From assembly GCF_008065095.1 (NCBI RefSeq), contig NZ_CP042911.1:6060001-6092000 (forward strand): DNA of 32,000 nucleotides. The letters run 5' to 3'. Each line of letters opens with the position of its first letter. The stretch's first letter is position 1. The notes under the pieces are model-generated. The model searched no databases. It saw only the letters and a program-made list of their open reading frames with translations, and had not been told where the DNA came from. Source of the stretch: Gemmata obscuriglobus. GTDB taxonomy: Bacteria > Planctomycetota > Planctomycetia > Gemmatales > Gemmataceae. Made by a program: the position numbers and the translations under genes. Below, in pieces: positions 9,077-25,464 of the stretch.

Positions 9077-9233
9077 TAGCTCTCCAAATCGAGGGGAGCT
9101 AAAATAGTCATATTCGCGTTTCTGTCCACACGCCCTAGGTTATCGAGTCGCGCAGTCACCTGGGCCGCGCCGACGCGCAGCTTCGACCGGTTGCATGGGG
9201 ATGTGTTTTCGGCGGGTATGATATCGGTCGTGA

Positions 9234-11915: not shown

Positions 11916-14900
11916 CTACACATGTCCGCTTTCGCGGAGGTGGGTGGTCATGTCGCGGTGCACCCGGCGGCGGATCAAGAACTCGTCCTCGTCGAGCCAC
12001 GCCCGCACCGCCGTTCCGAGCGTGAACTCGTCGGTCACGACCGAGCGTACTACGGCGTCGATCAGGCGCAACGGTTGGAGCGTGAAGTAGCAGTTCGTGG
12101 ACCCGCTTACCGTCACCCGGTCGAGCCGCTGGAACAGTTCTTCGAGCCGCCCCAGGGCGATCCCTGCCGGCGCGAAACCCAACGCCTCGGCGTAAGCCAG
12201 CGCGACAGCAGTTCGCGCGGCCGGGTCGGGGGAGGCTAACTCGAAGAGGTACTTACGGGCGGCGTCGAGGATGCGGATTCCGGCCTCCTCGTCACCCGCC
12301 GCGAACCATCCGACCGCCAGCCCGACCTTCTCAACGGTCGGCGTCTGGTCGAGCCACCCGGCCCGCGCCGGGTCGAGCACGCTCATCAGGGCTTCGGCCT
12401 CGGCCGCCAGCCCGAACTTGCGCGCGGCCCGGAACACCCGCGGCGCAGCCGCGGTCGCCGCTGGCAGGAGCGGCCCGGCGGCCGCCCCGCGTGTGACGTG
12501 TTGCAGGACCACGCTGGCCAACGGCCCGACCGGCGCCAGTGCCAACGCCGATCCGATGATCCGCGCCTGATACCGGGACACGCGCTGCGGCCGCTCGGCG
12601 TCGGTCCAGCGCCCGCCCCGGACCCAGGCTTCGAGCCAGTCGAGCGCCGCCGGTACGCGCTCGATCAGCGCGCTCAACTGCGGGTGCTCCAGTGTCGCGC
12701 CGGCTTCGAGCAGCGCGAACACCACCCGCGGCACGGTGGCGGTGGTCGGCTGGGAGGCGATCAGCGCGATCAGCGCGCGCGCCTCCTCGTTCACGTACGC
12801 CGGATCAGTTTGAGAGCCCAGTAGCGCGAGCCGCTCACCGAGCCGGTCCGGCCCCCAGAATTCTTTCAGGTCGCGGCCGTGGTACGCGCTCACCTGCCCG
12901 AGCGGTTGCAGGATGCGGCTGTGCTCGCGCAACCGGTCCACGGAATACCGCGCGAACTCGTGCAACCGGTCGAGCCGCTCCTGGAACTCTGCCGGGAGCG
13001 CGGCCTTCGGCGCCGCGCCCTCGTGAGCGTCCTTGATTCGGTGCAGGAACAGGTCGCCGAGCAGCGCGTGAGCGGCCGGGTCGGCACGTGGGCCGCCGGC
13101 GCGGGACAGGGCCTTCCGCGCGCGGGCGGCCCAGTCCCGCGCCGGCGCCCGCTCCCCCAGCGCCCCCAGGCCCCACGCCAGCATGAATTGCGCGTACACC
13201 GCCGTCGCCTCGGTCTCGGCCTCAAGCCCGGTCCATTCGAGCCGCGCTCCGCCCGCGTGCCGCTGCACCCATTTGAGGATCGGCTCCTTTTGGTGGGTCA
13301 GCCATTCGCGCGCGGTCTTGAACCGCTCTGCGGTGGCGGCGCCGCGGAACCGCAGGAACGACGGCTCGTCGAGGTCCAGCCCGGGACCGCGGTGGTGCAA
13401 CCGGTGGATGATCCGGTCGCGCCACCGCGCCAGCCCCAGCACGTCGCCGTTCGTGGCACGAGCCACTGCAAGCCGGGCGAGCCAAGCCCCCCTTACCGGG
13501 ATGTCCTCGAAGTGCTGGTCCAGGACTGCGAGGACCCGCGGGAGGTCGCTCGCGAACCCCGCGGGCGGGACCGCGGCCCACCCCGCACACGCGGCCAGCG
13601 ACGCCACGACGCGCCCGGTGCCGGGGCGCCCGGGTTCCGCCAGCCAGCGCTCCAGTTCTGCGGCGCGGTCGCCCGGCTTTGCCGCGGCCCGCTCCGCCGC
13701 GGCCCACTCCTCAAGCCATTCTGGCGGTGGAACCGGGCACTCCCAGATCGCGTTCACCCAGCACACTGCGGCGTCGAGCGCCCGTCCGGTCGCGCCGTAC
13801 ACGTTGGCCAGTTCCGCCCACCGTGCGGCGCGCTGGTCCGGCTCGAGCGTGGAGAAGTCTGATAGCAAACGGCTTTCCAGTCGGTGCCGGTGGGCCGCAC
13901 GGTCGTGCCCGTGCAGCAGCGCGTCCGCCGAGCTGAGTTTCTGCTCGACCCGAGTAACGGTTGGAGCGGCGGTCAGTGTCCGCTTCTGTCCCGCGGCAAG
14001 TTCCGGCCTGGCCCCAGGCTCCGTTGGTCCGGTGCTGCGTGCGGCGCGCCCGCTGACCCACCGCACGATCCGGCCGACGGACTTCGCGACCCAGCCCGGT
14101 GGCGCGTCGGTCGGAACGGACGGCTCTTCGATCACCCGTTCCAACACGTCGGGTTCTGGTTCGGTAACGGGTTCGACCCGCAGCGCGAATCGGTCGAGCG
14201 CGAAGACATCCGCGTTGATCCGGTCAGCCACGAGTATAGTAGCAGCAGGGGGCACGTATTCCAACTGATCGCACAGCGGGCGAAACAGTTCGAGCGCGGC
14301 CGAATTGATCGTGAAAGCACCTTCACGAGAGGGCTCGAGCCAGGTGAGACGGTCCGCTCGCAGCCCGAGTTCGCGCCCGACCTCGCTCGCACGGGTGATC
14401 GGTCGGAGCGCCCGCCCGACCGGCACGAACAGCCCCGGCAGGCGCGGGTCGCACTGATACCCCGGCACTGCCAGGGGCAGTCCGGGGCTGTCATCGCTTG
14501 GCGTGTGTCGGATCACGATTCGCTCGCGCCCGCCGGCTTCGAGCGTTGCGATCTGGAACCGTCGCAGCAACCGCTCGTCGGCACTGCGGCAGAAGTCGCC
14601 GAACGCACCCAGTTCGGGGGGGCTGAGCACCCAGAGTGATTCGGCACCGGCCGGCTCCGTGCCCCGCAACCGGAGTTGCACCTCGATCGCCGCTGGCGCG
14701 GGCGCTTCTACTGCGGCGTTCGGGCGACGGTGCAACGGATACTCGTCGTCCGCAGCGGTGGGCACCGGCTCGCGGTACAGGACAATACCGGCCGGTTCGC
14801 AGAGGAGGACGCACGACGGAGGGAGGGGCAGGTGCCCGGCGAGCGGGTGCTCCCAACCCCGCGCGGTCCACACGCCCGGCGCCTGTTGGCGGAACGCGCG

Positions 14901-15356
14901 CACCGCCGTGTCCGGTTCTTCGGTCCAAAGGAGGACGGCTGCGGGCGGGGTGGGCGCGGTCACCCAGGCGCGGCCGGCGTGGGGCTCGGACAGCAGTCGG
15001 ATTCCGAGCGGCCCGGCCCGCAAGCGCCGCAGCCGCGCAACGAACGCGGCCAGTTGCTTGTCCGGAATGCTGAACAGCACCGGCCCCGGCGCGGGGGCAC
15101 TCTTCCTGAGTGGAAGCAGTTCGGCCCAACAGCGGATCGGTTCGGCCGGCGCGCCTGGTGAGCCGACCGCCACCACACCGAACCGTCCGATCGCCGCGAG
15201 CACATCGCGCGGTGGTAGTTGGTCCAGTTCGACCCAGATGCGCCCGGTGTCGTCCCGGCCCGCGCGCCCCGGTACACCCGTAACGCAGCTCGGCACCAGC
15301 CCGCTGGCCAGCGCGAGTCGAAGAGCGTCCGGATTCGGGAAAAAGAGCGCGGGCAT
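11916..15356 (-). CDS. Large uncharacterised protein, paralog B (1146 aa)
   Basis: The track ORF extends to 15659, but homology to paralog A starts at ATG 15356 (MPALFFPNPDALRLALASGLVP vs MILLFPDLDTVRLALTTGIVP). It is colinear with paralog A along its whole length. It is very Arg/Ala/Pro-rich and Lys-poor. Confidence 0.8.
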   Translation of the reverse strand: MPALFFPNPDALRLALASGLVPSCVTGVPGRAGRDDTGRIWVELDQLPPRDVLAAIGRFGVVAVGSPGAPAEPIRCWAELLPLRKSAPAPGPVLFSIPDKQLAAFVARLRRLRAGPLGIRLLSEPHAGRAWVTAPTPPAAVLLWTEEPDTAVRAFRQQAPGVWTARGWEHPLAGHLPLPPSCVLLCEPAGIVLYREPVPTAADDEYPLHRRPNAAVEAPAPAAIEVQLRLRGTEPAGAESLWVLSPPELGAFGDFCRSADERLLRRFQIATLEAGGRERIVIRHTPSDDSPGLPLAVPGYQCDPRLPGLFVPVGRALRPITRASEVGRELGLRADRLTWLEPSREGAFTINSAALELFRPLCDQLEYVPPAATILVADRINADVFALDRFALRVEPVTEPEPDVLERVIEEPSVPTDAPPGWVAKSVGRIVRWVSGRAARSTGPTEPGARPELAAGQKRTLTAAPTVTRVEQKLSSADALLHGHDRAAHRHRLESRLLSDFSTLEPDQRAARWAELANVYGATGRALDAAVCWVNAIWECPVPPPEWLEEWAAAERAAAKPGDRAAELERWLAEPGRPGTGRVVASLAACAGWAAVPPAGFASDLPRVLAVLDQHFEDIPVRGAWLARLAVARATNGDVLGLARWRDRIIHRLHHRGPGLDLDEPSFLRFRGAATAERFKTAREWLTHQKEPILKWVQRHAGGARLEWTGLEAETEATAVYAQFMLAWGLGALGERAPARDWAARARKALSRAGGPRADPAAHALLGDLFLHRIKDAHEGAAPKAALPAEFQERLDRLHEFARYSVDRLREHSRILQPLGQVSAYHGRDLKEFWGPDRLGERLALLGSQTDPAYVNEEARALIALIASQPTTATVPRVVFALLEAGATLEHPQLSALIERVPAALDWLEAWVRGGRWTDAERPQRVSRYQARIIGSALALAPVGPLASVVLQHVTRGAAAGPLLPAATAAAPRVFRAARKFGLAAEAEALMSVLDPARAGWLDQTPTVEKVGLAVGWFAAGDEEAGIRILDAARKYLFELASPDPAARTAVALAYAEALGFAPAGIALGRLEELFQRLDRVTVSGSTNCYFTLQPLRLIDAVVRSVVTDEFTLGTAVRAWLDEDEFLIRRRVHRDMTTHLRESGHV

Positions 15357-15392
15357 GACCTGAAGTGTAGTCTCGGGGAGTAAAGAGGGGTA

Positions 15393-15439
15393 CGAAATCC
15401 GCACGAAGCGCCCGCCAGGGTGGCTCCGTGCGGATTTCG
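15393..15439 (-). other. Intergenic stem-loop between the two giant paralogs
   Basis: Perfect 13-bp inverted repeat CGAAATCCGCACG (15393-15405) / CGTGCGGATTTCG (15427-15439) with a 21-nt loop. The loop itself contains GCCA-GGG-TGGC. No U-tract follows on the transcribed strand. Confidence 0.6.
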
Positions 15440-15472
15440 CGCTTCTGCTCCCGAACCGGCGTGGCGGAACGG

Positions 15473-18400
15473 TTAGAGGTTGTTCTTCTCCAGGTTCTTC
15501 TTCATGTCCGCGTGGATGCGGCGGCGGACGAGGTACTCGTCGTCGTCGAGCCAGCGGCGGCCGGACGGCCCCAGCGCCGCGTCGTCGTTGACGACGGAGC
15601 GGATCACGTCCTCTACGAGGTTCAGGTGGAACCGCGAGTAGTACTGTGCGGTGGTCCACGTGTTCGTGATCTTCGCCGGGGACATCTTCTTGAACAGCTC
15701 GATCATCCGCACCACGGCGACCTCGGCCGGGCCCTGGCCCAGCGCGGTGACGTAGGCCCGCGCCAGTTCTGTATAGTCCTTCGGTTGCAGCGAGACGGCG
15801 GTCGCCCCGAGTAGCTCCTCACGCGCCAGCTCGAGGATCGGGTTGGCCCGGTCCTGCCGACCGAAGTGCAGCCACCCGCCCGCGAGGTTCAACTGCGTTT
15901 GCAGCACGGCGGCCCACATCTCGGGCTTAGCCTGGTACTTCTTCTTCAGCTCCGTCGGCGTCGCCCCGCCCAAGATCTCGCTGTGCAGCTTCGTCAGGAA
16001 CCGGTCGATCTCGTTCGACAGCCCGAGCCGCCGCAGGTTCCGCATGCACTCGTTGGCGACGACGTTGATGAGCTTGAACTTCATCTCCGGCGGCTTCGCG
16101 TGGACGAGCGCCGTGAAGTCGTCCACCAGCTTCTTCACGAGGTCGTCGCGGTTGAAGTGGCCGGCGTGGAACATCGCCCTCTCAAGCAGTTCGCCCTGCT
16201 TCTTCGGCAGGTCCGCCGCCTCGTTGGCCCCGCCCGCGCCTTGGAGCGCCGCGGGCACCAGGTTGAGCAGTTCCACCGTGAACGTTTCGTTCACGTGCAG
16301 CGAGGCCAGCGGCAGGCCCTCGTGCAGCACGTGGAACTGCACCTCCTTCTGCGTCTTCCCGCTGACCCCCTCCTTGTACAGTTTGCGGATGCGGTCCGCG
16401 AGTTTGTTCGGGTCCTTGATGGTGTGCAGGTCCGCGAGTTCTTTCTTCAGCGGGTCCTGGTTCTTGGTCCAGTAGCTGTACGGGTCGAGGCGCTCCTGCG
16501 GCGACAGGATGCGCGACTGCTCGCGGAGCCGGCCGATCACGTACTCCCCGCGGAGGAACGGGTTGTTCGTGCCGCCGCTGCGGGCCTTACTGCTCAGGTC
16601 CTCCAGTTCCTGCATGATCTCGGCGGACAGTTGCCCGGTCGGCGGTTTGCCCGCGAGCACCTGCTCGATGCGGTACTTAAACGCTTTGTAGACGAAGTTG
16701 CTGGAGACCGCGGACACCACCTGCTCGAACAGCTTGAGGTCCTGCCACGACGAAGGAACCGGCTTCTCCAGCACCTTGCGGGCGTCCTCCAGCAGCTTCT
16801 TGGCCTGGCTCGCCTCGCCCAACTTGCCGACCGCGAACGCGAACAGTAGGTCCACGAGCGGGTGGTTCGCTTTCAGGTGTTCGTTCTTCTGGGCCGCGGC
16901 GGAGTCGTCGAGCCACTTGCGGATGGTGCCGTGCAGCTCCATCGCCTTGTCCCGCACCACCCGCATGCGCTCGGAGTCCTTGACCCCGGCGACGCGGAGG
17001 AAGTACGGCAGGTCGCGCTCCGCCTGGAGCCCCTGTTCGAGCAGCCGCTTGAGCAACCGGTCGCGGACCCGGGCCAGCCCGAGGACATCCGCGCCGGCGA
17101 GTTGCGCGAGCCGGAAGCCGGCCAGCCAGACCGCCCGCACGGGCAGCGAGCCGTCATTGGTCTCCAGATAGTTCTGGAGCGCCGGCAGCCGGGCCATGAG
17201 CCACGGCGGCACCGGGTTCTGCGCCGCCAGCCATAAGAACGCGGCCACGACCCGGCGCGAGTCCTCGAGCCCGCTGCCGGTGTGGTTCAGGAGCTTGTCG
17301 AACTCGGGCGCGGTGATGGTGGCGCCCGCGGCGGGCACCTCACTGCGGACCCAGCGCCCGAGCCACTCGGGGGGCAGCGGGTCGGAGTCCCACAGCGCGT
17401 CCAGCCAACAGATCGCGGCGTCCATCTGGTGCTTGCCGCTGCCGGTGTAGGCGGCGGCGAGTTCGGGCCACATGCCGACCCGCTCCGGGGCGTCGAGCGG
17501 ACCTTCGAGCGCGAGGAACTCCTGCTCGAGTTCCTTCGCCCGCACCTCCCACTCGTTCGGCTTGCGCACCTCCTCGACCGGCGGCAGGAACTCTGCGGTC
17601 GCGCCCGGCTTGCCCGGCGCCGCCTTACTCTTGGCCGGCCCTTTTGCGGCCGGAGCGGCGGCCTTGGAGCCTTTAACGTCGTCGTCTTTTTCCTTCGGGT
17701 CCTTGTCGCCCTTGTCCGGCTTGTTCTTCGGCCGGTCGATCTCGCGGCACTGGAACGCGTCGAAATCGAACCGGGTGGCCTCGATCCAGGCGGAGAGCGC
17801 CTTCTGCTCGGCCTCAATGACGTAGTCCACCCAGTCCTCGAGCGAGCGGAACGCCGCGTCGGGCACGAACTCGGGGGTGAAGCCGCCCTTCGAGCCGGGC
17901 GCGTCCGTGCCCGGCTCGTCCGGATACAGCCACACGACCTGGTCGGCGTCGTCGGCCAGGAGCTTGCGAACCGCGTCCCGGCGCAGCGTTGGGTGGAGCC
18001 GCTTGCCGACCGGCAGGAACAGGTTCGGGAGCTTCCAGTACGGCTTGAACGCCAGCGCGTTGTCGAGCGCCAGCACCGGGGGCGTGAGCTTCGACGGGCG
18101 GACCCGCAGCACCACCGTCCGGCCCCCGCTGGCGTCGGTCGCGACGGCGAACATGAGGCGCTGGAGCAGGCGGTCGTCGGAGTCGCGCACGAGCGTGTCG
18201 AGCTGCTCGATGGCGTTCTCGCGGAGCACCCACAGCTCGGCGGTCTCGCTGGCGGTGCCCGGCGCGAGCCGCAGCGGCACCTGCATCTTCTTGGGCGCTT
18301 TGGTCTCGCTCCAGCCGACCGGCGCCGCCGGCAGTTTGAACTGGAGGTTGTCGTACACGTCCTGGAACGGGGCCTCGTCCAGGTACACCCACTCGCGCGG

Positions 18401-19003
18401 CGCGCGGATCAGCACGAGCTGCTTGTCCGCGACGCGCAACTGCGGCGCGAGTGGGAGCGTGTGCCCCACCTCCACCCACACGCGGGGGGCGCGTTCGAGG
18501 TACGCGCGGACACTTTTGGTCCCGTCGGCGCGCCCCCTGTCGAGCGCGCGGAGCAGCGTGTAATATGGCGGGCCGATGACCCGCAGCAGCACCCGCTTGC
18601 CGTCCGTTTCACCCGTTGTGAACCAGCGGAACCCCTGCCGGTCGTTGCCCAGCCGCAGCATCTCGGTGACGAGCGCGGGCAGGTCCTCGGCGTTCTCCAG
18701 CTCGAACAGCACCGGCTGCTGGTTGGAGATGGTGGGCGCGATCGGGTCGCGGGTGACCGGCAGCAGTTGCGGCCAGCAGGTCACCTCTTGCGGGTCGTCG
18801 GAGGCGTGCCGCTTCGAGCCCTTGACGCCGATCCGGTCCAGGTTCTTGGTGACCGTGCGGGTGAGGTTGGCGGTCGGCTCGACGTAGATCTTGCCCTGGT
18901 CGTCGAAGCTGACCGCGGCCGGCGCGAGCGTCACCTCGGCCGGGACGATACCGGTGGTCAGCGCGAGCCGGACCGTGTCGAGGTCGGGGAAGAGCAGGAT
19001 CAT
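15473..19003 (-). CDS. Large uncharacterised protein, paralog A (1176 aa)
   Basis: Intact 3.5-kb ORF starting at ATG 19003. It has an N-terminal module shared with paralog B, a Lys/Asp/Pro/Ala low-complexity linker (~17590-17745), and a long helical-repeat-looking C-terminal half. I recognise no catalytic motif. Confidence 0.85.
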   Translation of the reverse strand: MILLFPDLDTVRLALTTGIVPAEVTLAPAAVSFDDQGKIYVEPTANLTRTVTKNLDRIGVKGSKRHASDDPQEVTCWPQLLPVTRDPIAPTISNQQPVLFELENAEDLPALVTEMLRLGNDRQGFRWFTTGETDGKRVLLRVIGPPYYTLLRALDRGRADGTKSVRAYLERAPRVWVEVGHTLPLAPQLRVADKQLVLIRAPREWVYLDEAPFQDVYDNLQFKLPAAPVGWSETKAPKKMQVPLRLAPGTASETAELWVLRENAIEQLDTLVRDSDDRLLQRLMFAVATDASGGRTVVLRVRPSKLTPPVLALDNALAFKPYWKLPNLFLPVGKRLHPTLRRDAVRKLLADDADQVVWLYPDEPGTDAPGSKGGFTPEFVPDAAFRSLEDWVDYVIEAEQKALSAWIEATRFDFDAFQCREIDRPKNKPDKGDKDPKEKDDDVKGSKAAAPAAKGPAKSKAAPGKPGATAEFLPPVEEVRKPNEWEVRAKELEQEFLALEGPLDAPERVGMWPELAAAYTGSGKHQMDAAICWLDALWDSDPLPPEWLGRWVRSEVPAAGATITAPEFDKLLNHTGSGLEDSRRVVAAFLWLAAQNPVPPWLMARLPALQNYLETNDGSLPVRAVWLAGFRLAQLAGADVLGLARVRDRLLKRLLEQGLQAERDLPYFLRVAGVKDSERMRVVRDKAMELHGTIRKWLDDSAAAQKNEHLKANHPLVDLLFAFAVGKLGEASQAKKLLEDARKVLEKPVPSSWQDLKLFEQVVSAVSSNFVYKAFKYRIEQVLAGKPPTGQLSAEIMQELEDLSSKARSGGTNNPFLRGEYVIGRLREQSRILSPQERLDPYSYWTKNQDPLKKELADLHTIKDPNKLADRIRKLYKEGVSGKTQKEVQFHVLHEGLPLASLHVNETFTVELLNLVPAALQGAGGANEAADLPKKQGELLERAMFHAGHFNRDDLVKKLVDDFTALVHAKPPEMKFKLINVVANECMRNLRRLGLSNEIDRFLTKLHSEILGGATPTELKKKYQAKPEMWAAVLQTQLNLAGGWLHFGRQDRANPILELAREELLGATAVSLQPKDYTELARAYVTALGQGPAEVAVVRMIELFKKMSPAKITNTWTTAQYYSRFHLNLVEDVIRSVVNDDAALGPSGRRWLDDDEYLVRRRIHADMKKNLEKNNL

Positions 19004-19133
19004 GTGTGCCGGGTGTTCGGGGCTGTAATCATCGGGGCGAAAAACCCGAAGCGGTGGCCCCGGGCTGAAGAGTCGCGGTCACACGACGGACGGCGCCGGC
19101 CGCTCGACTCGGGGGCGGGCGCGGTTCGCGCCG

Positions 19134-19391
19134 CTACCCCTTGTTGGTCTGCTTCTGGCGCTCGGGCTCGTTGGGCTGTTGGACCGGCCCAGTGGGGTGC
19201 TGCTCCGACTCGCGCTCGACGATGATCTGGTCGTCGTCCTTGAGCTTGCGGCCGAGCACCTTCTCGGCAAGGGCTTTGTGCATCTGCTCGTGTTCGATGG
19301 GCAGCGCGTCCGGGTCGGAGTCGAGCTTGATGATGATGTTCTGCTTGCCGGTGTTCGGGTCCCGGCGGAGCATAATGATCATTTCGGCCAT
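19134..19391 (-). CDS. Small charged protein (85 aa) between FtsH-like gene and giant paralog A
   Basis: Start chosen at ATG 19391 (MAEMIIMLRRDPNTGKQNIIIKLDSDPDALPIEHEQMHKALAEKVL...). The track ORF extends to 19499 through an AT-rich leader. It is co-directional with its neighbours and sits in a conserved-looking position within the array. Confidence 0.6.
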   Translation of the reverse strand: MAEMIIMLRRDPNTGKQNIIIKLDSDPDALPIEHEQMHKALAEKVLGRKLKDDDQIIVERESEQHPTGPVQQPNEPERQKQTNKG

Positions 19392-19515
19392 TCTAAAACC
19401 TGCGATTTGTGTTTTGTATTTGGTATTGAGTGTTCGGCGTTTAATGTGGAGTGTTCTGGTAGCGGCCGGTACAGCGTCACGCGCCGAGGGGCCGAACACC
19501 AGATCCGCACTACCA

Positions 19516-21762
19516 CTACTCGCCGTCCTTCTTCTTCGCGGGCTTCTTCTCGGCTGCGGTGCCGTTCCCGTTCGCGCTTTCGGTGGCGGTGGCGGTGCCC
19601 GCGCCGCCGGCGAGCTTCACCTCCGGCCCCGGCGCGCCCACGTCCTTCGGGTACTTCGTGCGCAGCTCCTCAATAATCGCCTTCGTGCGGTCGCCCTCGA
19701 TCGTCTTCTTCTCCGTCAGCTCGTCGCGGAGCTTGATGAGGTCGGCCTTGTGCTTCGTGAGGATCGCGGCGGCCTTCGCCTGGGCCTCCACGATGATCGT
19801 GTTGACCTGCCGGTCGATCGCCTCGGCCATCGACCCGGACAGCACCGCCCGGTCGCCCTTCTCGTCGCGGAACGAGCGGAGCGGGGCCGCGAGGTTCGAC
19901 ATCCCGCAGACCTGCACCATGTACTCGGCGATGAGCGACGCCCGCGACAGGTCCGACCCCGGCGCGCCCATCCCGCTGGCCCCGGTGGAGACGTCGCCGA
20001 TCAGCAGCCGCTCGGCCTCGATCCCGCCGTAGAGCACCGCGAGCTGGTCGAGCATCTCGTTGCGGCTCATGCCGATACGGTTCTTCTCCTGCTTGAACTG
20101 GGTGAAGAACGGCGCCCACGGCATGTCGCTCTGGATCGTCACCTTCTCCGGCGGCTGGTGGTGCGGGCAGAAGATGGACACGAGGAAGTGGCCCGCCTCG
20201 TGCGTCGCCACGACCGGCAGGTCCTTCTCGTGAACCTCCACCTTCTCGTCGAACTCGGTGATCGCCTTCTCGATCAGCTTCGGCGTCGTCTCGCCCGTGA
20301 TCCCCTCGCGGAGCCGCAAGCGGGCGACGGAGCGGCACAGCGCGTTCAGGTGGTCGCCGCTGAACGCCGTGCCGGTGGGGGTCATGTACCGGTTGCCGGT
20401 CCGGGTGATCGCGTACTCGAGCGCCTCGTCGTTGAAGTTGAGGCGCATCTTCTTGTTGTAGATCTCGAAGATCGCCCGGCGGTCGTCGTCGTCCGGGTAC
20501 GGGATGTGGATGTGGAACTCGAACCGGCCCGGGCGCAAGAGGGCGGGGTCGAGCGACTCCACGAAGTTGGTCGTGCCGACCACGAAGACGAGTTCGTCCT
20601 TGTGGAACCCGTCCATCTCGGTGAGCAACTGGTTCACCATCGAGTGCTCGACGCCGCTGCCGGTGTACGTGCCGCGGGCCGTGGCGAACGAGTCGATTTC
20701 GTCGAACACGATGATCGACGGCGCGCTCTGGCGCGCCCGGTGGAAGATCTGCCGCAGGTTCTCTTCCGACTCGCCGACCCACTTCGATTTCAGCTCGGGG
20801 CCGCTGACGATGGTGATGGCGGCCCCGATGCTGGCGGCGATCGCCTTGGCGAAGTAGGTCTTGCCGGTACCGGGCGGCCCCCAGAAGATCATCCCGCGCG
20901 GGATCAGCTCTTCGAGCCGCGCGATCTCCTCGGCGTCGGTCGCGCGGTCGCGCTTCGACAGCGTGTCGAGGATCTCGCTCTTGAGCTTCGCCTTGACCTT
21001 CTTGTACCCGCCGATGTCCTTGTCCAGGTCGACGGACGGGATCTCCATGTTCCCGCTGAGCGTGGACTGCCGCACCTGCGCGTAGGCCCGCTTCGGGTCG
21101 GCCGGGTAGTCCTCGCCTTCGAGGGTGGAGAGCAGGCGCCGGAGGCGCACGGCGTTCACCCCGGACACGTACTTGTAGAGCTGCCAGGGCGAGAAGTCCT
21201 TGCCGAACTTCCGGCTCTCCTTCTGCGTGATGAGGTGCCGCAGCCGGTTCCGCGCGATGCCCAGGATGCTGAGCCAGTGCGGGAACAGGTTCTCGATCAC
21301 CTTGGGCAGCGAGAACGACGGGTCCTTGAACCCGAGCCACACCAGTTCGGGGTTCTCGTACAGCAGCGGGATCACCTCCCGCGCCTCGCTGGTGAGCCCG
21401 CCCTGGCTGGTGGTGAGGAGGTCGAGGTGCGGGAGCACGACGACGCGCCGCTCGGTGGCGCCGCGGACGGCGTCGCGGAGCTGCCCGATCATGGTGCCGA
21501 TGAGGCCCATCGGCATCGCGCCCTGTTGCGGGTCGCGCTGCCGGCCGTCCAAGTAGATGCACTGGAGCTTGGCCTGCCGCAGCCGGTCGCGCACGTTCAT
21601 GAACAGGTACGGCGCGAGTTCCTTGTCGCACTCGATGAGCGTGGGCAGCCCGCGGACGAGTTTGCTGGCCACCTCGGCCATTTCCTGGCTGTACGCCGCC
21701 TCCACCGCCTGCGGCGGCGAGAGGTCGGCGGGCAGGTCCTTTTCCGTGACGGTGATGCTCAT
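19516..21762 (-). CDS. FtsH-like AAA+ ATPase / M41 zinc metalloprotease lacking transmembrane segments (748 aa)
   Basis: Start at ATG 21762 (MSITVTEKDL). Walker A GPPGTGKT, Walker B IIVFDEID, second region of homology TNFVESLDPALLRPGRF, zinc site HEAGH, and the downstream LYGGIEAERLL that matches FtsH GGRAAEE are all present. The ~330-aa N-terminal region has no hydrophobic stretch. The C-terminal tail is low-complexity and Lys-rich. Confidence 0.9.
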   Translation of the reverse strand: MSITVTEKDLPADLSPPQAVEAAYSQEMAEVASKLVRGLPTLIECDKELAPYLFMNVRDRLRQAKLQCIYLDGRQRDPQQGAMPMGLIGTMIGQLRDAVRGATERRVVVLPHLDLLTTSQGGLTSEAREVIPLLYENPELVWLGFKDPSFSLPKVIENLFPHWLSILGIARNRLRHLITQKESRKFGKDFSPWQLYKYVSGVNAVRLRRLLSTLEGEDYPADPKRAYAQVRQSTLSGNMEIPSVDLDKDIGGYKKVKAKLKSEILDTLSKRDRATDAEEIARLEELIPRGMIFWGPPGTGKTYFAKAIAASIGAAITIVSGPELKSKWVGESEENLRQIFHRARQSAPSIIVFDEIDSFATARGTYTGSGVEHSMVNQLLTEMDGFHKDELVFVVGTTNFVESLDPALLRPGRFEFHIHIPYPDDDDRRAIFEIYNKKMRLNFNDEALEYAITRTGNRYMTPTGTAFSGDHLNALCRSVARLRLREGITGETTPKLIEKAITEFDEKVEVHEKDLPVVATHEAGHFLVSIFCPHHQPPEKVTIQSDMPWAPFFTQFKQEKNRIGMSRNEMLDQLAVLYGGIEAERLLIGDVSTGASGMGAPGSDLSRASLIAEYMVQVCGMSNLAAPLRSFRDEKGDRAVLSGSMAEAIDRQVNTIIVEAQAKAAAILTKHKADLIKLRDELTEKKTIEGDRTKAIIEELRTKYPKDVGAPGPEVKLAGGAGTATATESANGNGTAAEKKPAKKKDGE

Positions 21763-21824
21763 AGTGGTGGTTGGTTTTCGGTGTTGAGTGTTTAGCCCGT
21801 TCGTTGCGCCTTCAGCGTTCAGTG

Positions 21825-21853
21825 AAAAACAGGCCGGGGCGTCGCCCGGCCGG
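21825..21853 (-). terminator. Rho-independent terminator candidate after the 190-aa gene
   Basis: On the minus strand the stem GGCCGGG-CGACGC-CCCGGCC (plus coordinates 21832-21851) is followed by TGTTTTT (plus-strand A5 at 21825-21829). It lies ~35 nt after the stop at 21886. Confidence 0.6.
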
Positions 21854-21885
21854 CTGACCAAACACCAAAAACCGAATTCGGAGCA

Positions 21886-22458
21886 CTAAACCTCGACCTT
21901 GATCGTCAGCGAGCCGCTCTCGGCGTCCTCACTTATTTCCTTAACGGTGCCCATCTGCTGGGCCTTCTGCTTGAGCGCGTCGCGGGTCACCTGGTTCACG
22001 ACCTCGGAGATTTCTGGCTGCAGGTCCTGCAAGTGCTTTTCGAGCGCCTGGGTCGCCTTGTCTTGCAGTTTGGACTGCTCCTGGTCGAACTTCTTATCCA
22101 GGTCTTGTTTGAGCTGCTCTTTCACCTTCTCGCGCAGGCTCTTCTCGTTCGGGCCGACGTCGTTGAACCCGGTGGCCTCGCGCTTCACTTCCTGGTTAAC
22201 GGTCTGCTGGGTCTCGGCCTTGACGGAGACCTCGCCGCGGCACGGGTCGACTTTGACGGTCAGCTCGCCGTCCTTGCGGCACAGGGTGCCGTCGTCCTGC
22301 TCCTCGAAGCCCCGCTTCTTGAGTTCCTCGCGGAGCAGCGTGGCCATGTCCTCGGGCGGCAGGATTTCGAGGATCTCGAGCTCCGTGCAGATCTCGTCCC
22401 CGGCCTTGAGGTTGCGGGTCTCGGACTCCTTCACGGTGATGCGGTATGCGCGGCTCAT
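21886..22458 (-). CDS. Hypothetical protein (190 aa), charged/coiled-coil C-terminal half
   Basis: Clean ORF with an ATG start, co-directional with the array. It has Lys/Glu/Gln-rich heptad-like stretches (KEQLKQDLDKKFDQEQSKLQDKATQALEKHLQDLQ). No family recognised. Confidence 0.7.
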   Translation of the reverse strand: MSRAYRITVKESETRNLKAGDEICTELEILEILPPEDMATLLREELKKRGFEEQDDGTLCRKDGELTVKVDPCRGEVSVKAETQQTVNQEVKREATGFNDVGPNEKSLREKVKEQLKQDLDKKFDQEQSKLQDKATQALEKHLQDLQPEISEVVNQVTRDALKQKAQQMGTVKEISEDAESGSLTIKVEV

Positions 22459-22524
22459 GTTCGCGTGGCTCCGGGGTACGGGTCAGGACTCAGAGTAACA
22501 GACGCCGGGGGCGCACAACAGGGA

Positions 22525-23703
22525 TCACCCGGGACTGCCCTCGGGGTTTCCGCCCGCCGGGGGCGCGCCGTCCGCGGGGGCCGCTCCGGGCACCGGGCCG
22601 CGGAGCGGCTCGAGCATCTCCACCGCCGCCCGGGCGCGCGCCGCGACGCGGTCGCCGCTCGCCGCCTCCCAGTCGGCCTTCCACATCTGACTGGCCTGGT
22701 AGTCGTCGTCGAAGTACCCGACGTACCGGGCGCGCTCCTGCCAGGTCTCCAGGATCTCCATCTGCCGCGGCACCGCGAGGGCGGCCCGCTGGGTCTCCAG
22801 GCGGTCGGCGAGGCGTTGCGGGCCGCTGCCCTGGAGCCCGCCCGTCCAGAACACCGGCGTCAGGTCGGACTGCAGCACCTGTGCGTTGGTGCGCAGCACG
22901 AACCGGGCGAGGTCCGTGCGCCGCGCGGCCTCGGCAACCTGGAGGAAGCCGCGCAGGGTGGCGAACTCGGCGTTGCCCTGCACCCGCATCTTCTTCCAGT
23001 CCGTGAGCTGGCCCTTGTCGCGCTCGGTCTTCACCCAGCGGTTCGTCAGCTCCCGCTGGAGGCACTCCAGCAGCACCGCGCGCTGCCCCTGGCACACCGG
23101 CGTGAAGTCCGGGACCGCCGGCTTGGCCGCGTCGGGGTCGGCGGCGTCCTGGGGGGCGAGCAGCCAGCAGAACGGGTTCCGCGCCACCACGTCCTTGCGG
23201 CGCATCACCGCGAGCACGTCGGGGTCCGTGCGCATCGCGTCGAAGCTCAGCGCGAAGAACAGTTCGTCCGCCGGGGTGAGCGCCTTCGGGGCCGTGTCCC
23301 ACGCCACCTTCGACTCGTGGACCTTCTCGGCCGTGAGCCAGAACAGGAAGTCGAGCACCGGGCGCGAGAACTCGAGCGCCCGCTCGTCGAGCGGGATGCG
23401 GTCCCAGACGCGCCCGCCGACGGGCTGCCCGTCGCGCAGGTACTTGTCGTTGCGCCACCCGCCGGCGCGGGTCAGGAACAGCACGAACGCCTTCTTCAGC
23501 GTGTCCTTCACCAGTTCGACCGCCCCGGCGCTGATGCACTCGGGCTTGGTGGTCGCGGTGCGGACCAGCTGCAGCCCCTGGTCCGCCGGGAAGTGTCGGA
23601 CGAGGAACCGCAGGATGCGGAGCAGGTTGAACTCGAACTTGGTGACCTGCCGCGGTCCTTCCGGTTCGGGCGGCTGCGTTGGCGGGGCGGCGGTGCGCGT
23701 CAT
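22525..23703 (-). CDS. Hypothetical protein (392 aa)
   Basis: Start at ATG 23703-23701 overlaps the TGA (23702-23700) of the upstream radical SAM gene, giving an ATGA junction. The track ORF extends further, to 23871. No motif recognised. Confidence 0.7.
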   Translation of the reverse strand: MTRTAAPPTQPPEPEGPRQVTKFEFNLLRILRFLVRHFPADQGLQLVRTATTKPECISAGAVELVKDTLKKAFVLFLTRAGGWRNDKYLRDGQPVGGRVWDRIPLDERALEFSRPVLDFLFWLTAEKVHESKVAWDTAPKALTPADELFFALSFDAMRTDPDVLAVMRRKDVVARNPFCWLLAPQDAADPDAAKPAVPDFTPVCQGQRAVLLECLQRELTNRWVKTERDKGQLTDWKKMRVQGNAEFATLRGFLQVAEAARRTDLARFVLRTNAQVLQSDLTPVFWTGGLQGSGPQRLADRLETQRAALAVPRQMEILETWQERARYVGYFDDDYQASQMWKADWEAASGDRVAARARAAVEMLEPLRGPVPGAAPADGAPPAGGNPEGSPG

Positions 23704-24383
23704 TTCGTGTCGGTCCCTTGCGCGTTCGCACTCGTCTCGGGCTGGGCCACCGGGAGCGGCTTTTTGCGCCTCCAGCCCTTCCACAAGCCTACAGCATTGG
23801 CCGCTGGAAAGCCATTCACCGTGATCTCGCGCCCGACGACGCGGATCTCCAGCGTGTTCCTCTTCCGCCACTGCTCGTCGTGGGAGTAGCGAGCGGTCAG
23901 GAAGTGGATGCGCTGGTTGGTGGACCCGATCCAGCGGCGCTCGGTGTCCGGCTGCTCGCGGACGTACGGCCCGTCCACCAGGATGTCCGTCAGCGCGATC
24001 AGTTCCAGCACCGCCGGGTCGGCCTTCGCCCGGAGTTCCTCGACCGTGAACCCAGTGAAGGTCATCACGGTGAGGCCGAGGTCACGGGCGGCCCGGGCCA
24101 GCGCCGCCGCGGCCGGCGCGTGTGCCGTGGGCTCGCCGCCCATGAGCGTGATCCCCTCCACCCCCTCTTCGTCCCGGGCGCGGCGTAACTCCGCAACCAC
24201 TTCGCCGAACGTGCGGGTCGCGCCGCCTTTGAAGGGCAGGTATTCGGGATTGCAGCAGCCGGGGCACCGGAGCGGGCAACCCTGGAACCACAGCGCGAAC
24301 CGCTTCCCGGGGCCTTCGGCCTCGGTGCTGGGCACGATCTGCGCGATCTGCATGGTCAGTTCGGTGGCCGTCGGAGCGTCCAT
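23700..24383 (-). CDS. Radical SAM protein, NrdG/PflA-type activating-enzyme-like
   Basis: EGPGKRFALWFQGCPLRCPGCCNPEYL carries the CX3CX2C cluster in the NrdG-like context, and ITLMGGEPT is present. Start chosen at ATG 24383 (alternative 24353). The track start at 24470 would overlap rtcA. Confidence 0.8.
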   Translation of the reverse strand: MDAPTATELTMQIAQIVPSTEAEGPGKRFALWFQGCPLRCPGCCNPEYLPFKGGATRTFGEVVAELRRARDEEGVEGITLMGGEPTAHAPAAAALARAARDLGLTVMTFTGFTVEELRAKADPAVLELIALTDILVDGPYVREQPDTERRWIGSTNQRIHFLTARYSHDEQWRKRNTLEIRVVGREITVNGFPAANAVGLWKGWRRKKPLPVAQPETSANAQGTDTK

Positions 24384-24417
24384 CGCGTGCCCGTAAGTTC
24401 CTGATGGGTGCCCCGCA

Positions 24418-25464
24418 TTATACCCGCGCGGCGATGCGGACGATCCCCGATTTGGCGTCACCGTGCTCAATTGTGATGGTACGATCCACGAACTTCCGCA
24501 CGGTTTCCACGTTGGTTGTGAGGTGCCGGGTCACTTCGGACGTGCGGTACTCGCTGGCGTCGCCGCTGAGCGCCAGCGGGAGGAGCAGTTGGTCGGCCGA
24601 GTGCGGGTCGACCGGGCACTTCGCGTCGCGGAACGCGATGGCCTCGTCCGCGGCATCGTCGGCGACGCTTTCCGCCGGCTTGCCGCGCTCCCCCAGTCCG
24701 AAGAACAGCGGCGGAACCGGTGCCTGCCGGAAGATGACCGCCGCGACGCTGCCGGGCGAGGCCGCTTCCCACTGCTCAACGGGAAGGTGCGACTCCACCC
24801 CCTCCGATTTGAGCCTCACACTTAACCGCCGCGCCTGTTTCTTACCGACCGATTCGGGAAGATCGGCGTACGCGCTGAACCCGCCGGCCGTGGTCAGTTC
24901 CGGACACGTCAGCAGCGACAGCCCGTTGACGCGCGAGCACGGGTGAATGACGGCGCGAATTTCGCCCCCGCCGCGCGGGTAGAAGCCGGGGCGCACCAGC
25001 TCCAACTCGACCTTGATGCCCAGCCGCGCGAGGTACGCGGCCCAGGTGGTTTCGAGGAAGTGGTAGCACGGGGCGTGCGCGTTGTGCGTGCCGCCGGTGA
25101 CGGTGACCTCGGACGGCTTATCGCCCCGCAGCGCGAGCGGCAGGTAAACCGTGTGCAGCACGAGGGCCGTGGCGCCGGCGGTGCCGATGGTGAAGGTGTA
25201 ACGGCCGGCCTTTACGGCTCCGGGTTCGAAGTACAGTACCGACGAGCCGTTCGCCGCGCCCTTATACTGCGCGCCCGAAACGGCGCCCGCGGCCTTCACG
25301 CACATAACGTGTTGCGGCTGGAGCCCCGGCTTGCTCCGGTTCGCGCGGATGTTGGTCAGCTTGAACGGCCGCCCCGTGAGTACGGACAGCGCCAGCGACG
25401 AGCGGAGGATTTGCCCCCCGCCTTCGCCCTCCGAGCCGTCGATTTCGATCATGCCATCGCTCAT
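24418..25464 (-). CDS. rtcA: RNA 3'-terminal phosphate cyclase
   Basis: MSDGMIEIDGSEGEGGGQILRSSLALSVLTGRPFKLTNIRANRSKPGLQPQH... and the catalytic-His region VDPHSADQLLLPLALSG are present. At 348 aa the length matches RtcA. The 576-aa track ORF is an artefactual N-terminal extension. Confidence 0.9.
   Translation of the reverse strand: MSDGMIEIDGSEGEGGGQILRSSLALSVLTGRPFKLTNIRANRSKPGLQPQHVMCVKAAGAVSGAQYKGAANGSSVLYFEPGAVKAGRYTFTIGTAGATALVLHTVYLPLALRGDKPSEVTVTGGTHNAHAPCYHFLETTWAAYLARLGIKVELELVRPGFYPRGGGEIRAVIHPCSRVNGLSLLTCPELTTAGGFSAYADLPESVGKKQARRLSVRLKSEGVESHLPVEQWEAASPGSVAAVIFRQAPVPPLFFGLGERGKPAESVADDAADEAIAFRDAKCPVDPHSADQLLLPLALSGDASEYRTSEVTRHLTTNVETVRKFVDRTITIEHGDAKSGIVRIAARV

What the first reader, a model, noticed from the sequence alone, without database searches (positions are those of the whole stretch)
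11916..21762. Membrane-less FtsH-like protease + 85-aa peptide + two tandem ~1150-aa paralogs: candidate uncharacterised proteolytic/conflict system
Four co-directional minus-strand genes lie close together. The FtsH-like protein (19516-21762) keeps every catalytic signature: GPPGTGKT, IIVFDEID, LLRPGRF, HEAGH and GGIEAE. Its ~330-aa N-terminal region has no TM segment. It looks instead like a degenerate extra NTPase-like tier (VVVLPHLDLL where a Walker B would sit). It therefore does not look like the housekeeping membrane FtsH. It is followed by a small charged 85-aa ORF and two colinear giant proteins. The giants share an N-terminus (MILLFPDLDTVRLALTTGIVP vs MPALFFPNPDALRLALASGLVP). They share a central block (MWPELAAAYTGSGKHQMDAAICWLDALWDSDPLPPEWLGRW vs RWAELANVYGATGRALDAAVCWVNAIWECPVPPPEWLEEW). 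They also share a C-terminal tail (RRWLDDDEYLVRRRIHADM vs RAWLDEDEFLIRRRVHRDM). I recognise no enzymatic motif in either. From memory, Kaur, Burroughs, Iyer and Aravind (2020) and derived Pfam/NCBIfam models describe an FtsH ternary system: an FtsH-like ATPase-peptidase, a very large multidomain protein, and a small associated peptide. This locus has that shape. I cannot confirm membership without a search, and I know of no experimental characterisation. The duplicated giant partner, the adjacent RtcA/radical-SAM arm and the flanking IS/phage-relic hotspot make it a good candidate for a defence or regulated-proteolysis system.
Basis: partly seen in the sequence, partly recalled or inferred. 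Interest (0 to 1): 0.85.

Follow-up and report, generated by a model that had tools for sequence, protein, structure and literature searches.

The report
FtsH-type conflict operon lacking MoxR-vWA
The four genes are real and form the back half of a conserved eight-gene cluster in Gemmata obscuriglobus; the cluster is a computationally predicted but never tested 'FtsH ternary system' that here lacks its two name-giving genes and has gained an RNA-end cyclase and a second giant protein.

Summary
The window comes from Gemmata obscuriglobus. Four minus-strand genes are intact:
- a soluble FtsH-like AAA+/M41 protease
- an 85-aa protein
- two giant paralogs that are 29% identical

Pfam places the last three in families built for the FtsH ternary system of Kaur et al. 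2020 (fvmX3-analog and fvmX7).

The unit is larger than the finding. The order RtcA, NrdG/PflA-like radical SAM, fvmX6, fvmX5, FtsH-like, fvmX3-analog, fvmX7, (fvmX7) is syntenic in about 35 Gemmataceae genomes. All eight genes are under purifying selection.

In Myxococcus and three metagenomic loci the same six-gene core is followed by bpMoxR, and in three of the four by ivWA. These are the two genes that define the 'ternary' system. They are absent from this window and from every Gemmataceae locus I fetched. The diverged second giant sits in their place, and RtcA is added upstream.

Structure prediction shows no enzyme fold in fvmX6 (a novel all-alpha fold). Giant 1 has an alpha/beta head, a disordered linker and a 690-aa alpha-solenoid.

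Function is untested. My best reading is an ATP-driven proteolytic switch on solenoid scaffolds. Verdict: a new variant of a known, computationally predicted kind, of moderate interest.

The parts
24418..25452 (-). RtcA, RNA 3'-terminal phosphate cyclase (344 aa). It is the first gene of the cluster in Gemmataceae.
   Evidence: NCBIfam NF003246 scores 363 bits against a cutoff of 352. Pfam RTC E 4e-72. It aligns to E. coli RtcA (PDB 1QMH) at E 6.5e-61, with the His309 nucleophile position conserved. It is syntenic in 28 Gemmataceae loci. It is absent from the Myxococcus-type loci.
23700..24383 (-). Small radical SAM enzyme of the glycyl-radical-activase type (227 aa).
   Evidence: Pfam Fer4_12 E 1e-31 plus Radical_SAM. 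CxxxCxxC motif at aa 36. The best NCBIfam hit is NrdG at 95.5 bits, below its cutoff of 126. The best PDB sequence hit is PflA, E 9e-9.
22525..23703 (-). fvmX6 protein (392 aa), all-alpha, with no known fold match.
   Evidence: PF20004 E 2e-169. AF2 model has pLDDT 81.8 and pTM 0.81. The best Foldseek hit in the PDB has E 0.058 and TM below 0.3. A PDB profile search finds nothing.
21886..22458 (-). fvmX5 protein (190 aa). It is among the most conserved components within Gemmataceae.
   Evidence: PF20003 E 9e-87. Identity is 70-96% across Gemmataceae and 36-38% to Myxococcus.
21832..21851 (-). Terminator-like GC hairpin followed by a T run, in the fvmX5-FtsH spacer.
   Evidence: Consensus scan. 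Other Gemmataceae carry strong but non-homologous hairpins at this position, and the Myxococcus genes overlap. It is therefore not a conserved element.
19516..21762 (-). Soluble FtsH-like protease (748 aa). N-domain aa 1-275 (20938-21762), AAA aa 291-422 (20497-20892), M41 aa 511-695 (19678-20232).
   Evidence: Pfam AAA and M41. TIGR01241 scores 269 bits against a cutoff of 600, and the match starts at model position 162. No TM segment, and the only P-loop in the cluster. The N-domain is 61-62% identical to Myxococcus. dN/dS 0.05.
19134..19391 (-). fvmX3-analog (85 aa). It has a conserved core of about 62 aa with a universal EHExxH motif, followed by a variable hydrophilic tail.
   Evidence: PF20002 E 3e-37. 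Alignments. No PDB relative.
15473..19003 (-). Giant 1 (1176 aa). fvmX7 alpha/beta head (17813-19000), disordered linker aa 415-480 (17564-17761), alpha-solenoid aa 484-1176 (15476-17554).
   Evidence: PF20005 E 7e-135. AF2 pLDDT 80.7. Foldseek finds only solenoid proteins such as karyopherins, AP2 and APC/C TPR subunits, with best E 4e-3. It corresponds to the single giant of Myxococcus: 32% identity over the full length and the tree.
11916..15356 (-). Giant 2 (1146 aa). It is a diverged fvmX7 paralog and lies where bpMoxR and ivWA lie in Myxococcus.
   Evidence: PF20005 E 7e-120. 29% identical to giant 1. dN/dS 0.16-0.22. GC3 0.80. It follows giant 1 in 11 other distinct loci and is absent after giant 1 in 4. 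It forms its own clade in the tree.

Best explanation
Shown: the finding is the 3' half of an eight-gene cytoplasmic cluster of Gemmata obscuriglobus at 11916-25452 on the minus strand. The gene order is RtcA, NrdG/PflA-like radical SAM, fvmX6, fvmX5, soluble FtsH-like AAA+/M41 protease, fvmX3-analog, and two fvmX7-solenoid giants.

The cluster is a Gemmataceae derivative of the radical-SAM ('simple') subtype of the FtsH ternary system predicted by Kaur et al. 2020. It keeps the six-gene core found in Myxococcus (rSAM, X6, X5, FtsH, X3-analog, X7). It lacks the bpMoxR and ivWA genes that follow the giant there. A diverged second giant sits in their place, and RtcA is added at the front.

Inferred mechanism: the FtsH-like protein is the only NTPase in the cluster. 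It probably forms a soluble hexameric unfoldase-protease, and its near-invariant N-domain probably docks partner proteins. The giants would act as recruiting or sensing scaffolds. Each has an alpha/beta head, a disordered linker of about 65 aa and a 690-aa alpha-solenoid. The 85-aa protein, with a folded core and a disordered tail, would be an adaptor or a regulated substrate. ATP-driven unfolding or cleavage of one of these partners would switch the complex on or off in response to infection or to RNA or translation damage. The upstream module (radical SAM, X6, X5, RtcA) would supply the output or the signal.
For: Identity:
- Pfam matches to fvmX3-analog, fvmX5, fvmX6 and fvmX7, E 3e-37 to 2e-169.
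- The source is G. obscuriglobus.

Conserved unit:
- The same gene order recurs in about 35 Gemmataceae species-level genomes.
- All eight genes have dN/dS of 0.05-0.30.

Relation to the canonical system:
- In four loci from outside Gemmataceae (Myxococcus L041 and the metagenome contigs L042, L046 and L047), rSAM-X6-X5-FtsH-X3analog-X7 is followed by bpMoxR (PF20030). Three of the four also have ivWA (PF19996/PF19997). None has RtcA.
- tblastn with the Myxococcus MoxR and ivWA proteins finds nothing in the window or in any Gemmataceae locus.
- The Myxococcus giant matches giant 1 over its full length but matches giant 2 only in pieces. The tree agrees.

Mechanism hints:
- There is a single P-loop in the cluster and no TM segment.
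- The Walker A, Walker B, arginine-finger region and HEAGH motifs are intact.
- The N-domain is 61-62% identical between two phyla.
- Giant 1 has the architecture head, disordered linker, solenoid.
- The X3-analog tail is variable and hydrophilic.
- RtcA passes its equivalog cutoff and keeps the catalytic His.
Against: - Nothing about function has been tested anywhere. A literature search finds only Kaur et al..
- No recognisable toxin or effector domain is present. fvmX6 and the giants have no enzyme-like fold match.
- Conservation is even and strong, with no hypervariable sensor region. That is atypical for immune sensors.
- Flanks in other genomes are ordinary metabolic genes.
- PADLOC has no model for these proteins beyond generic AAA hits.
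- MoxR and ivWA could be encoded elsewhere in the genome. I could not test this.
- I could not confirm that the N-domain is a degenerate AAA domain. hhalign gave E 0.13, no better than the controls.
- RtcA may be linked only by family-level synteny.
- The two modules are separated in some genomes.
Confidence: 0.55

Rival explanations
1. It is a housekeeping or regulatory cytosolic proteolysis and quality-control machine of Gemmataceae and Myxococcota, not an immune system. On this reading the FtsH-like protease and its solenoid adaptors degrade specific cellular proteins during stress or development. RtcA would tie the machine to RNA-damage or translation-stress responses.
For: - Purifying selection is strong: FtsH dN/dS 0.05, X5 0.06-0.08.
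- The FtsH-like protein is 58-61% identical between Myxococcus and Gemmataceae.
- The gene order looks vertically inherited across about 35 Gemmataceae genomes.
- The giants have no hypervariable region.
- There is no toxin domain and no PADLOC model.
- Neighbours elsewhere are metabolic genes, for example ALAD and a glycoside hydrolase.
- Inteins have invaded this protein family at conserved sites. This shows only that those sites are highly conserved.
Against: - Gene content is modular and unstable. MoxR and ivWA are lost, giant 2 is present or absent, and the modules are split or stand alone.
- Kaur et al. link other subtypes of the family to caspase-like and EAD effectors and to Ubl conjugation.
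- IS remnants bracket the cluster in this genome.
Confidence: 0.3
2. It is a peptide-maturation (RiPP-like) system. The radical SAM enzyme would modify the 85-aa protein, the FtsH-like protease would process it, and the giants would act as scaffold or immunity proteins. This follows Kaur et al.'s suggestion that the radical SAM enzyme modifies a peptide effector.
For: - A radical SAM gene and a small protein gene lie in the same conserved cluster.
Against: - The 85-aa protein has a strongly conserved core of about 62 aa that looks folded, and it has no Cys. Its only variable part is a hydrophilic tail.
- The radical SAM enzyme is of the NrdG/PflA activase type and has no SPASM domain.
- No transporter or leader peptidase is present.
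- The radical SAM module occurs without the FtsH-X3analog-giant module in some genomes.
- Candidate glycine motifs in X5 and X6 are not conserved in Myxococcus.
Confidence: 0.08
3. It is a decaying remnant. Having lost MoxR and vWA, and sitting between IS fragments, the cluster would be non-functional in Gemmata.
For: - IS fragments abut both ends: ISKra4 at 11206-11883 and IS66 at 26641-27126.
- Giant 2 has lower GC3 (0.80) and the highest dN of the eight genes.
Against: - All eight ORFs are intact with catalytic motifs preserved.
- dN/dS is 0.05-0.30 for every gene.
- The MoxR-less arrangement is shared by about 35 species-level genomes at down to 52% giant identity. The loss is therefore old and the arrangement is stable.
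Confidence: 0.04

Closest known systems
FtsH ternary system, 'simple' radical-SAM subtype (Kaur, Burroughs, Iyer, Aravind 2020, eLife 9:e52696; Pfam fvmX3-analog, fvmX5, fvmX6, fvmX7, bpMoxR, ivWA). Seen here in Myxococcus sp. Y35 (L041).
   Same: It has the same six-gene core in the same order: rSAM, fvmX6, fvmX5, FtsH-like with the family N-domain, fvmX3-analog and the fvmX7 giant. Identity to the Myxococcus proteins is about 60% for FtsH, 50% for rSAM, 40% for X5 and X3-analog, 34% for X6 and 32% for the giant.
   Different: bpMoxR and ivWA are absent from the locus. A second, diverged fvmX7 giant occupies their position. RtcA is added upstream. The spacers between genes are about 120 nt and carry hairpins, whereas the Myxococcus genes overlap.
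Housekeeping membrane FtsH (TIGR01241; AAA+/M41 protease)
   Same: It has an active classical AAA module fused to an M41 zinc peptidase with HEAGH and the downstream acidic ligand region.
   Different: It has no N-terminal TM helices or periplasmic domain. In their place is a family-specific soluble domain of about 280 aa. It scores 269 bits against the equivalog cutoff of 600. Its pore loop is KWVGESE, which from my own knowledge is the Cdc48/Vps4 style rather than the FtsH style MFVG (sequence).
Soluble AAA+ unfoldases that use N-domains and large adaptors, such as Cdc48/p97, Mpa/ARC with Pup, and ClpA. This is a works-like analogy, based on established knowledge of those families.
   Same: It has an extra N-terminal tier ahead of an active AAA ring, partner proteins with disordered segments that could start threading, and large helical scaffolds as partners.
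   Different: The peptidase is fused to the ATPase. No tagging enzyme is present. The C-terminal Gly of the 85-aa protein is not conserved, so it is not a Ubl- or Pup-like tag.
RtcBA RNA-repair operon (RtcA)
   Same: RtcA here is a true equivalog with the catalytic His conserved.
   Different: No RtcB ligase or RtcR regulator was found in the window. RtcA is instead joined to a radical SAM and protease cluster.
Glycyl-radical enzyme activases (PflA, NrdG)
   Same: The size, the CxxxCxxC cluster motif and the best sequence matches all agree.
   Different: It scores below the NrdG cutoff. No glycyl-radical enzyme is nearby. No conserved RVxG[FYW]-like glycine loop is present in X5 or X6.

Membership tests
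FtsH ternary system (Kaur et al. 2020) | MoxR-type AAA+ component (Pfam bpMoxR PF20030) | tested here: not met
   There is no Pfam hit among the window ORFs. tblastn with the Myxococcus bpMoxR finds nothing in the window or in about 40 Gemmataceae loci. The only P-loop in the cluster is in the FtsH-like protein. The rest of the genome could not be searched.
FtsH ternary system (Kaur et al. 2020) | Divergent vWA component with an N-terminal helical region (PF19997 ivWA, PF19996 ivWA-helical_N) | tested here: not met
   There is no Pfam hit and no tblastn hit. The fvmX7 head of giant 1 is predicted as three alpha/beta subdomains. On my reading of that strand and helix order it is not a vWA Rossmann fold. 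No fold search of the head alone was possible.
FtsH ternary system (Kaur et al. 2020) | FtsH-type protein with an active AAA domain preceded by the family-specific N-terminal domain | tested here: met
   The AAA and M41 domains are intact. The N-domain is 61-62% identical to that of the Myxococcus member, which sits next to bpMoxR and ivWA. The N-domain family has 362 representative clusters.
FtsH ternary system (Kaur et al. 2020) | The N-terminal domain is a catalytically dead AAA copy | tested here: inconclusive
   hhalign of the N-domain against the AAA domain gives E 0.13, with VVVLPHLDLL aligned on Walker B. The controls score the same: reversed AAA 0.086 and M41 0.29. A PDB profile search gives 0 hits. 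The claim rests on Kaur et al..
FtsH ternary system (Kaur et al. 2020) | System-specific accessory domains fvmX3-analog, fvmX5, fvmX6 and fvmX7, plus radical SAM (simple subtype) | tested here: met
   PF20002 E 3e-37, PF20003 E 9e-87, PF20004 E 2e-169, PF20005 E 7e-135 and 9e-120. Fer4_12 plus Radical_SAM are also present.
Housekeeping FtsH (TIGR01241) | N-terminal transmembrane anchor and an equivalog-level score | tested here: not met
   The maximum 19-residue hydropathy is 1.45 and lies inside the AAA domain. The score is 269 bits against a cutoff of 600, and the match starts at model position 162.
RNA 3'-phosphate cyclase RtcA | Equivalog score and the catalytic histidine | tested here: met
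   NF003246 scores 363 bits against a cutoff of 352, and TIGR03399 scores 336 against 250. The position of E. coli His309 is conserved in the alignment to 1QMH.
Glycyl-radical enzyme activase (NrdG/PflA) | A cognate glycyl-radical enzyme or a conserved glycine loop in a partner protein | tested here: not met
   No glycyl-radical enzyme domain was found in the window. Candidate motifs in X5 (ATGF) and X6 (FWTGGLQGSGP) are not conserved in Myxococcus. The NrdG score of 95.5 is below its cutoff of 126.
Known anti-phage defence systems (PADLOC-DB 2.0) | A match to a catalogued system protein | tested here: not met
   Only generic AAA matches (IetA, TRIP13) were found for the FtsH-like protein. Nothing was found for the giants or the 85-aa protein.

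The most novel reading that the evidence does not exclude
In Gemmataceae a diverged fvmX7 giant has functionally replaced the MoxR-vWA chaperone pair. The system would then run on the FtsH-like protease alone, as a MoxR-independent 'binary' descendant of a ternary system. The recruited RtcA would couple RNA-end chemistry (3'-phosphate or 2',3'-cyclic phosphate ends made during ribotoxic or phage attack) to regulated proteolysis. That link has not been described for any conflict system.
Probability: 0.2. Interest if true: 0.75.

Novelty: new variant of a known kind. Interest (0 to 1): 0.55.

Why it matters
No FtsH ternary system has been studied experimentally. The only paper my library search found is the computational description.

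The Gemmataceae form is a natural minimal version, for three reasons:
- It has one NTPase.
- It has no MoxR or vWA.
- Its partner set is fixed and strongly conserved.

This makes it a tractable entry point for several questions. What does the soluble FtsH-like protease cut? What do the giant solenoids bind? What does the activase-type radical SAM enzyme act on?

The RtcA linkage gives a concrete hypothesis to test, namely that RNA damage is the trigger or the output. If the system proves to be a housekeeping machine, it would instead reveal a new cytosolic AAA+ protease pathway shared by Planctomycetota and Myxococcota.

Tried and rejected
- **N-domain as a dead AAA domain.** hhalign gave E 0.13 with a plausible Walker B register. 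Reversed and M41 controls scored the same, so I do not count it as evidence. A PDB profile search gave no hits.
- **Glycyl-radical substrate.** X5 'REATGF' and X6 'FWTGGLQGSGP' looked like candidate glycine loops. Neither is conserved in Myxococcus.
- **The 85-aa protein as a Ubl- or Pup-like tag.** Many copies end in Gly, but not all do. Examples are L007, L011, L024, L025, Myxococcus, L043 and L044.
- **fvmX7 or fvmX6 as a hidden vWA or MoxR.** No P-loop is present. The predicted secondary structure does not fit, and no fold match was found.
- **Hidden small peptide gene or ncRNA in the spacers.** No conserved small ORF was seen, and there were no Rfam or tRNA hits.
- **Conserved terminator between X5 and FtsH.** The hairpins are strong but non-homologous between genomes, and they are absent where the genes abut.
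- **Hypervariable sensor region in giant 1.** Conservation is even, at 0.5-0.88 per 40-aa block. Only the linker is low.
- **Structure job on locus-derived fvmX6 sequences.** I redid it with database homologs.
- **Foldseek of giant 1 against viral structures.** Only solenoid noise came back.
- **Kaur et al. supplementary table.** It held no Gemmata or Myxococcus entries in the stored part.
Full report
**Observation**

The window has about 68% G+C. A GC3 filter picks a continuous row of minus-strand genes from 25452 down to 11916. The four ORFs named in the finding are present and intact.

The FtsH-like protein (19516-21762, 748 aa) has GPPGTGKT, IIVFDEID, LLRPGRF, HEAGH and GGIEAE. Pfam finds AAA at aa 291-422 and Peptidase_M41 at aa 511-695. 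The first 280 or so residues match no Pfam, NCBIfam or PDB profile. No protein of the cluster has a hydrophobic stretch that reaches transmembrane level, apart from one Ala/Leu-rich stretch in giant 2. The only Walker A motif in the cluster is in the FtsH-like protein.

The small gene is at 19134-19391 (85 aa). Giant 1 is at 15473-19003 (1176 aa). Giant 2 is at 11916-15356 (1146 aa), which matches the NCBI protein GobsT_51910 of Gemmata obscuriglobus exactly. The two giants align over their whole length at 29% identity, E 2e-99.

**What the genes are**

Pfam assigns the 85-aa protein to fvmX3-analog (E 3e-37) and both giants to fvmX7 (E 7e-135 and 9e-120). The genes immediately upstream are fvmX5 (21886-22458, E 9e-87), fvmX6 (22525-23703, E 2e-169), a small radical SAM enzyme (23700-24383) and RtcA (24418-25452).

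RtcA passes the NCBIfam equivalog cutoff. It keeps the residue that aligns with the E. coli His309 nucleophile.

The radical SAM enzyme has its CxxxCxxC motif. It is closest to the glycyl-radical activases. NrdG scores 95.5 bits, below its cutoff of 126, and PflA is the best PDB hit at E 9e-9.

NCBIfam and PADLOC have nothing for the giants, X3-analog, X5 or X6.

**Literature**

The fvm families come from Kaur, Burroughs, Iyer and Aravind 2020 (PMC7159879). Their FtsH ternary system is one of four MoxR-vWA-centred systems. Its three defining parts are MoxR, a divergent vWA protein, and an FtsH-type protein with a dead N-terminal AAA copy and an active second one.

In the simpler subtype the vWA is fused to a large helical region, and the effectors are NEFF1 or a radical SAM enzyme with a standalone peptide. 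The paper does not mention RtcA. A full-text search finds no other paper on these systems.

**Synteny**

The exact giant 1 sequence maps to G. obscuriglobus CP025958.1. The order RtcA, rSAM, X6, X5, FtsH, X3-analog, giant 1 recurs in every sufficiently long locus of about 35 Gemmataceae species-level genomes. These were found with an fvmX5 pattern scan and with look-ups of giant homologs.

Identity to the window falls at different rates for different proteins. In the most distant locus, L004, it is 77% for FtsH, 74% for X5, 75% for RtcA, 68% for rSAM, 60% for X6, 52% for giant 1 and 45% for giant 2. Against G. algarum, dN/dS is 0.05 for FtsH, about 0.08-0.11 for RtcA, rSAM, X6, X5 and giant 1, 0.16 for giant 2 and 0.30 for X3-analog. 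Every gene is therefore maintained by selection. Giant 2 is the most relaxed of the large genes, and it also has the lowest GC3.

Giant 2 follows giant 1 in 11 other distinct loci and is missing after giant 1 in four: L005, L014, L017 and L018.

**Relation to the canonical system**

Distant homologs of giant 2 led to Myxococcus sp. Y35 and three metagenomic contigs. There the order is rSAM, X6, X5, FtsH-like, X3-analog and one fvmX7 giant, followed by bpMoxR (PF20030, E 4e-60). In three of the four loci an ivWA-helical_N plus ivWA protein comes next (PF19996, PF19997). None of the four has RtcA. This is the simple subtype that Kaur et al. describe.

tblastn with the Myxococcus MoxR and ivWA proteins gives no hit in the window or in any Gemmataceae locus. 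The other six Myxococcus proteins all hit. The Myxococcus giant matches giant 1 over its full length (32%, E about 1e-135) and matches giant 2 only in fragments. A neighbour-joining tree places giant 1 orthologs next to the Myxococcus-type clade, and giant 2 in a separate clade.

So Gemmataceae share a derived arrangement. MoxR and ivWA are gone from the locus. A diverged giant paralog lies at their position. RtcA is added at the 5' end.

**Modularity**

Four Gemmataceae loci carry rSAM-X6-X5 with unrelated genes downstream instead of FtsH. One of them, L030, has RtcA upstream; the others do not. One contig has only the X3-analog plus giant pair. One genome has a giant-2-type gene standing alone next to ribosomal genes. 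The system therefore breaks into at least three modules: rSAM-X6-X5, FtsH, and X3-analog plus giant.

**Structure**

fvmX6 was modelled with 67 homologs. The model is confident (pLDDT 81.8, pTM 0.81) and entirely helical. It has no match in the PDB: best E 0.058 and TM below 0.3.

Giant 1 was modelled with 72 sequences (pLDDT 80.7). It has three alpha/beta subdomains (aa 1-410), a disordered Lys/Pro/Ala-rich linker (aa 415-480) and a helical solenoid (aa 484-1176). Foldseek returns only solenoid proteins at weak E-values, such as karyopherins, AP2 and APC/C TPR subunits.

Residues invariant across the giants are mostly Trp, Pro, Leu and Arg, with no catalytic-looking constellation. Conservation along giant 1 is even, with peaks at aa 321-360, 641-680 and 1121-1160. 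There is no hypervariable patch.

X3-analog has a conserved core of about 62 aa with a universal EHExxH motif, followed by a variable hydrophilic tail.

The FtsH N-domain is exceptionally conserved, at 61-62% identity between phyla, with long invariant blocks. I could not show by sequence profiles that it is an AAA fold.

**Interpretation**

Identity is solid. This is a member of the gene-neighbourhood family that Pfam labels as the FtsH ternary system. However, it fails two of the three defining tests, MoxR and vWA. I therefore file it as a variant rather than a plain member.

Mechanism is inferred. The FtsH-like protein is the only energy-using component and is a complete unfoldase-protease. 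The only predicted disordered segments that could start threading are the giant linkers and the X3-analog tail. The solenoids and the invariant N-domain look like protein-docking surfaces.

I therefore favour an ATP-driven proteolytic switch assembled on giant scaffolds, with the rSAM-X6-X5-RtcA module as output or signal generator.

Whether it serves immunity or cellular regulation is open. Modular gain and loss, and the effector links of sister subtypes, point to conflict. Strong purifying selection, vertical-looking inheritance, ordinary flanks and the lack of a toxin domain point to a cellular role.

**Limits**

- I could not search the rest of the Gemmata genome for MoxR, ivWA or a canonical FtsH.
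- I could not model the FtsH N-domain, X5 or X3-analog.
- I could not search the fvmX7 head alone.

Noticed in passing
L021:11666-12994 (within the FtsH-like gene): An in-frame insertion of about 443 codons splits the pore loop KWVGE^SEENL. It ends in ...VLVHN followed by Ser, which is the signature of an intein. Two database homologs (P0319, P0334) carry Intein_splicing plus HNH or LAGLIDADG domains inserted near the start of the AAA domain (around the Walker A region in P0319).
   Followed up: partly
window 19134-19391 (and L041, L043, L044): The 85-aa fvmX3-analog has a universal E-H-E-x-x-H motif in a predicted helix. The motif is conserved from Gemmata to Myxococcus. The protein is too small to be a zincin peptidase, so this may be a metal site or a mimic that engages the M41 active site.
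   Followed up: partly
window 11206-11883 (+) and 26641-27126 (-): Transposase fragments sit at both ends of the cluster. An ISKra4 C-terminal piece lies 33 nt from the giant 2 stop codon. An IS66 piece lies upstream of RtcA. More IS genes are at 3413-4621 and 8678-10156 (DUF4096 plus DDE, apparently frameshifted).
   Followed up: partly
window 4670-5587 and 6528-7856 (-): There is a truncated SNF2-type helicase (305 aa) and a family A DNA polymerase split into two pieces of about 209 aa. Both have PHROG matches. In locus L030 an intact 865-aa polA lies at a comparable distance from fvmX5. The window copies look like pseudogenes or mobile-element remnants.
   Followed up: partly
window about 15394-15438 (giant 1 to giant 2 spacer), and 21832-21851: The spacers of about 120 nt between cluster genes carry strong hairpins, for example GAAATCCGCACG...CGTGCGGATTTC. 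In other Gemmataceae the X5-FtsH spacer holds long palindromes that are not homologous to one another, with folding energies from about -29 to -177 kcal/mol. Myxococcus genes overlap with no spacer.
   Followed up: partly
window 24418-26148: The NCBI record calls RtcA as 576 aa. Orthologs of 341-349 aa and the alignment to E. coli RtcA support a start at 25452 (344 aa). That leaves about 1.2 kb upstream with no convincing gene.
   Followed up: partly
L030, L036, L027, L029; L043; L045: The modules can occur apart. rSAM-X6-X5 is found without FtsH downstream (with RtcA upstream only in L030). An X3-analog plus giant pair occurs next to a TetR gene. A giant-2-type gene stands alone beside a ribosomal protein operon.
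   Followed up: partly
L041, L042, L047 (Myxococcus-type loci): One to three tandem WGR plus LRR proteins follow ivWA. In L041 and L042 a sigma-54 activator with a PilZ domain and a ThiF-like gene lie upstream.
   Followed up: no
P0375, P0403 (database homologs of the FtsH N-domain): Some family members are about 965 aa long, with the N-domain followed by two AAA domains that match Pfam AAA, and then M41.
   Followed up: no
window 11916-15356: Giant 2 has clearly weaker codon bias than its neighbours (GC3 0.80 against 0.94-0.96). Its dS against G. algarum is about twice theirs.
   Followed up: partly
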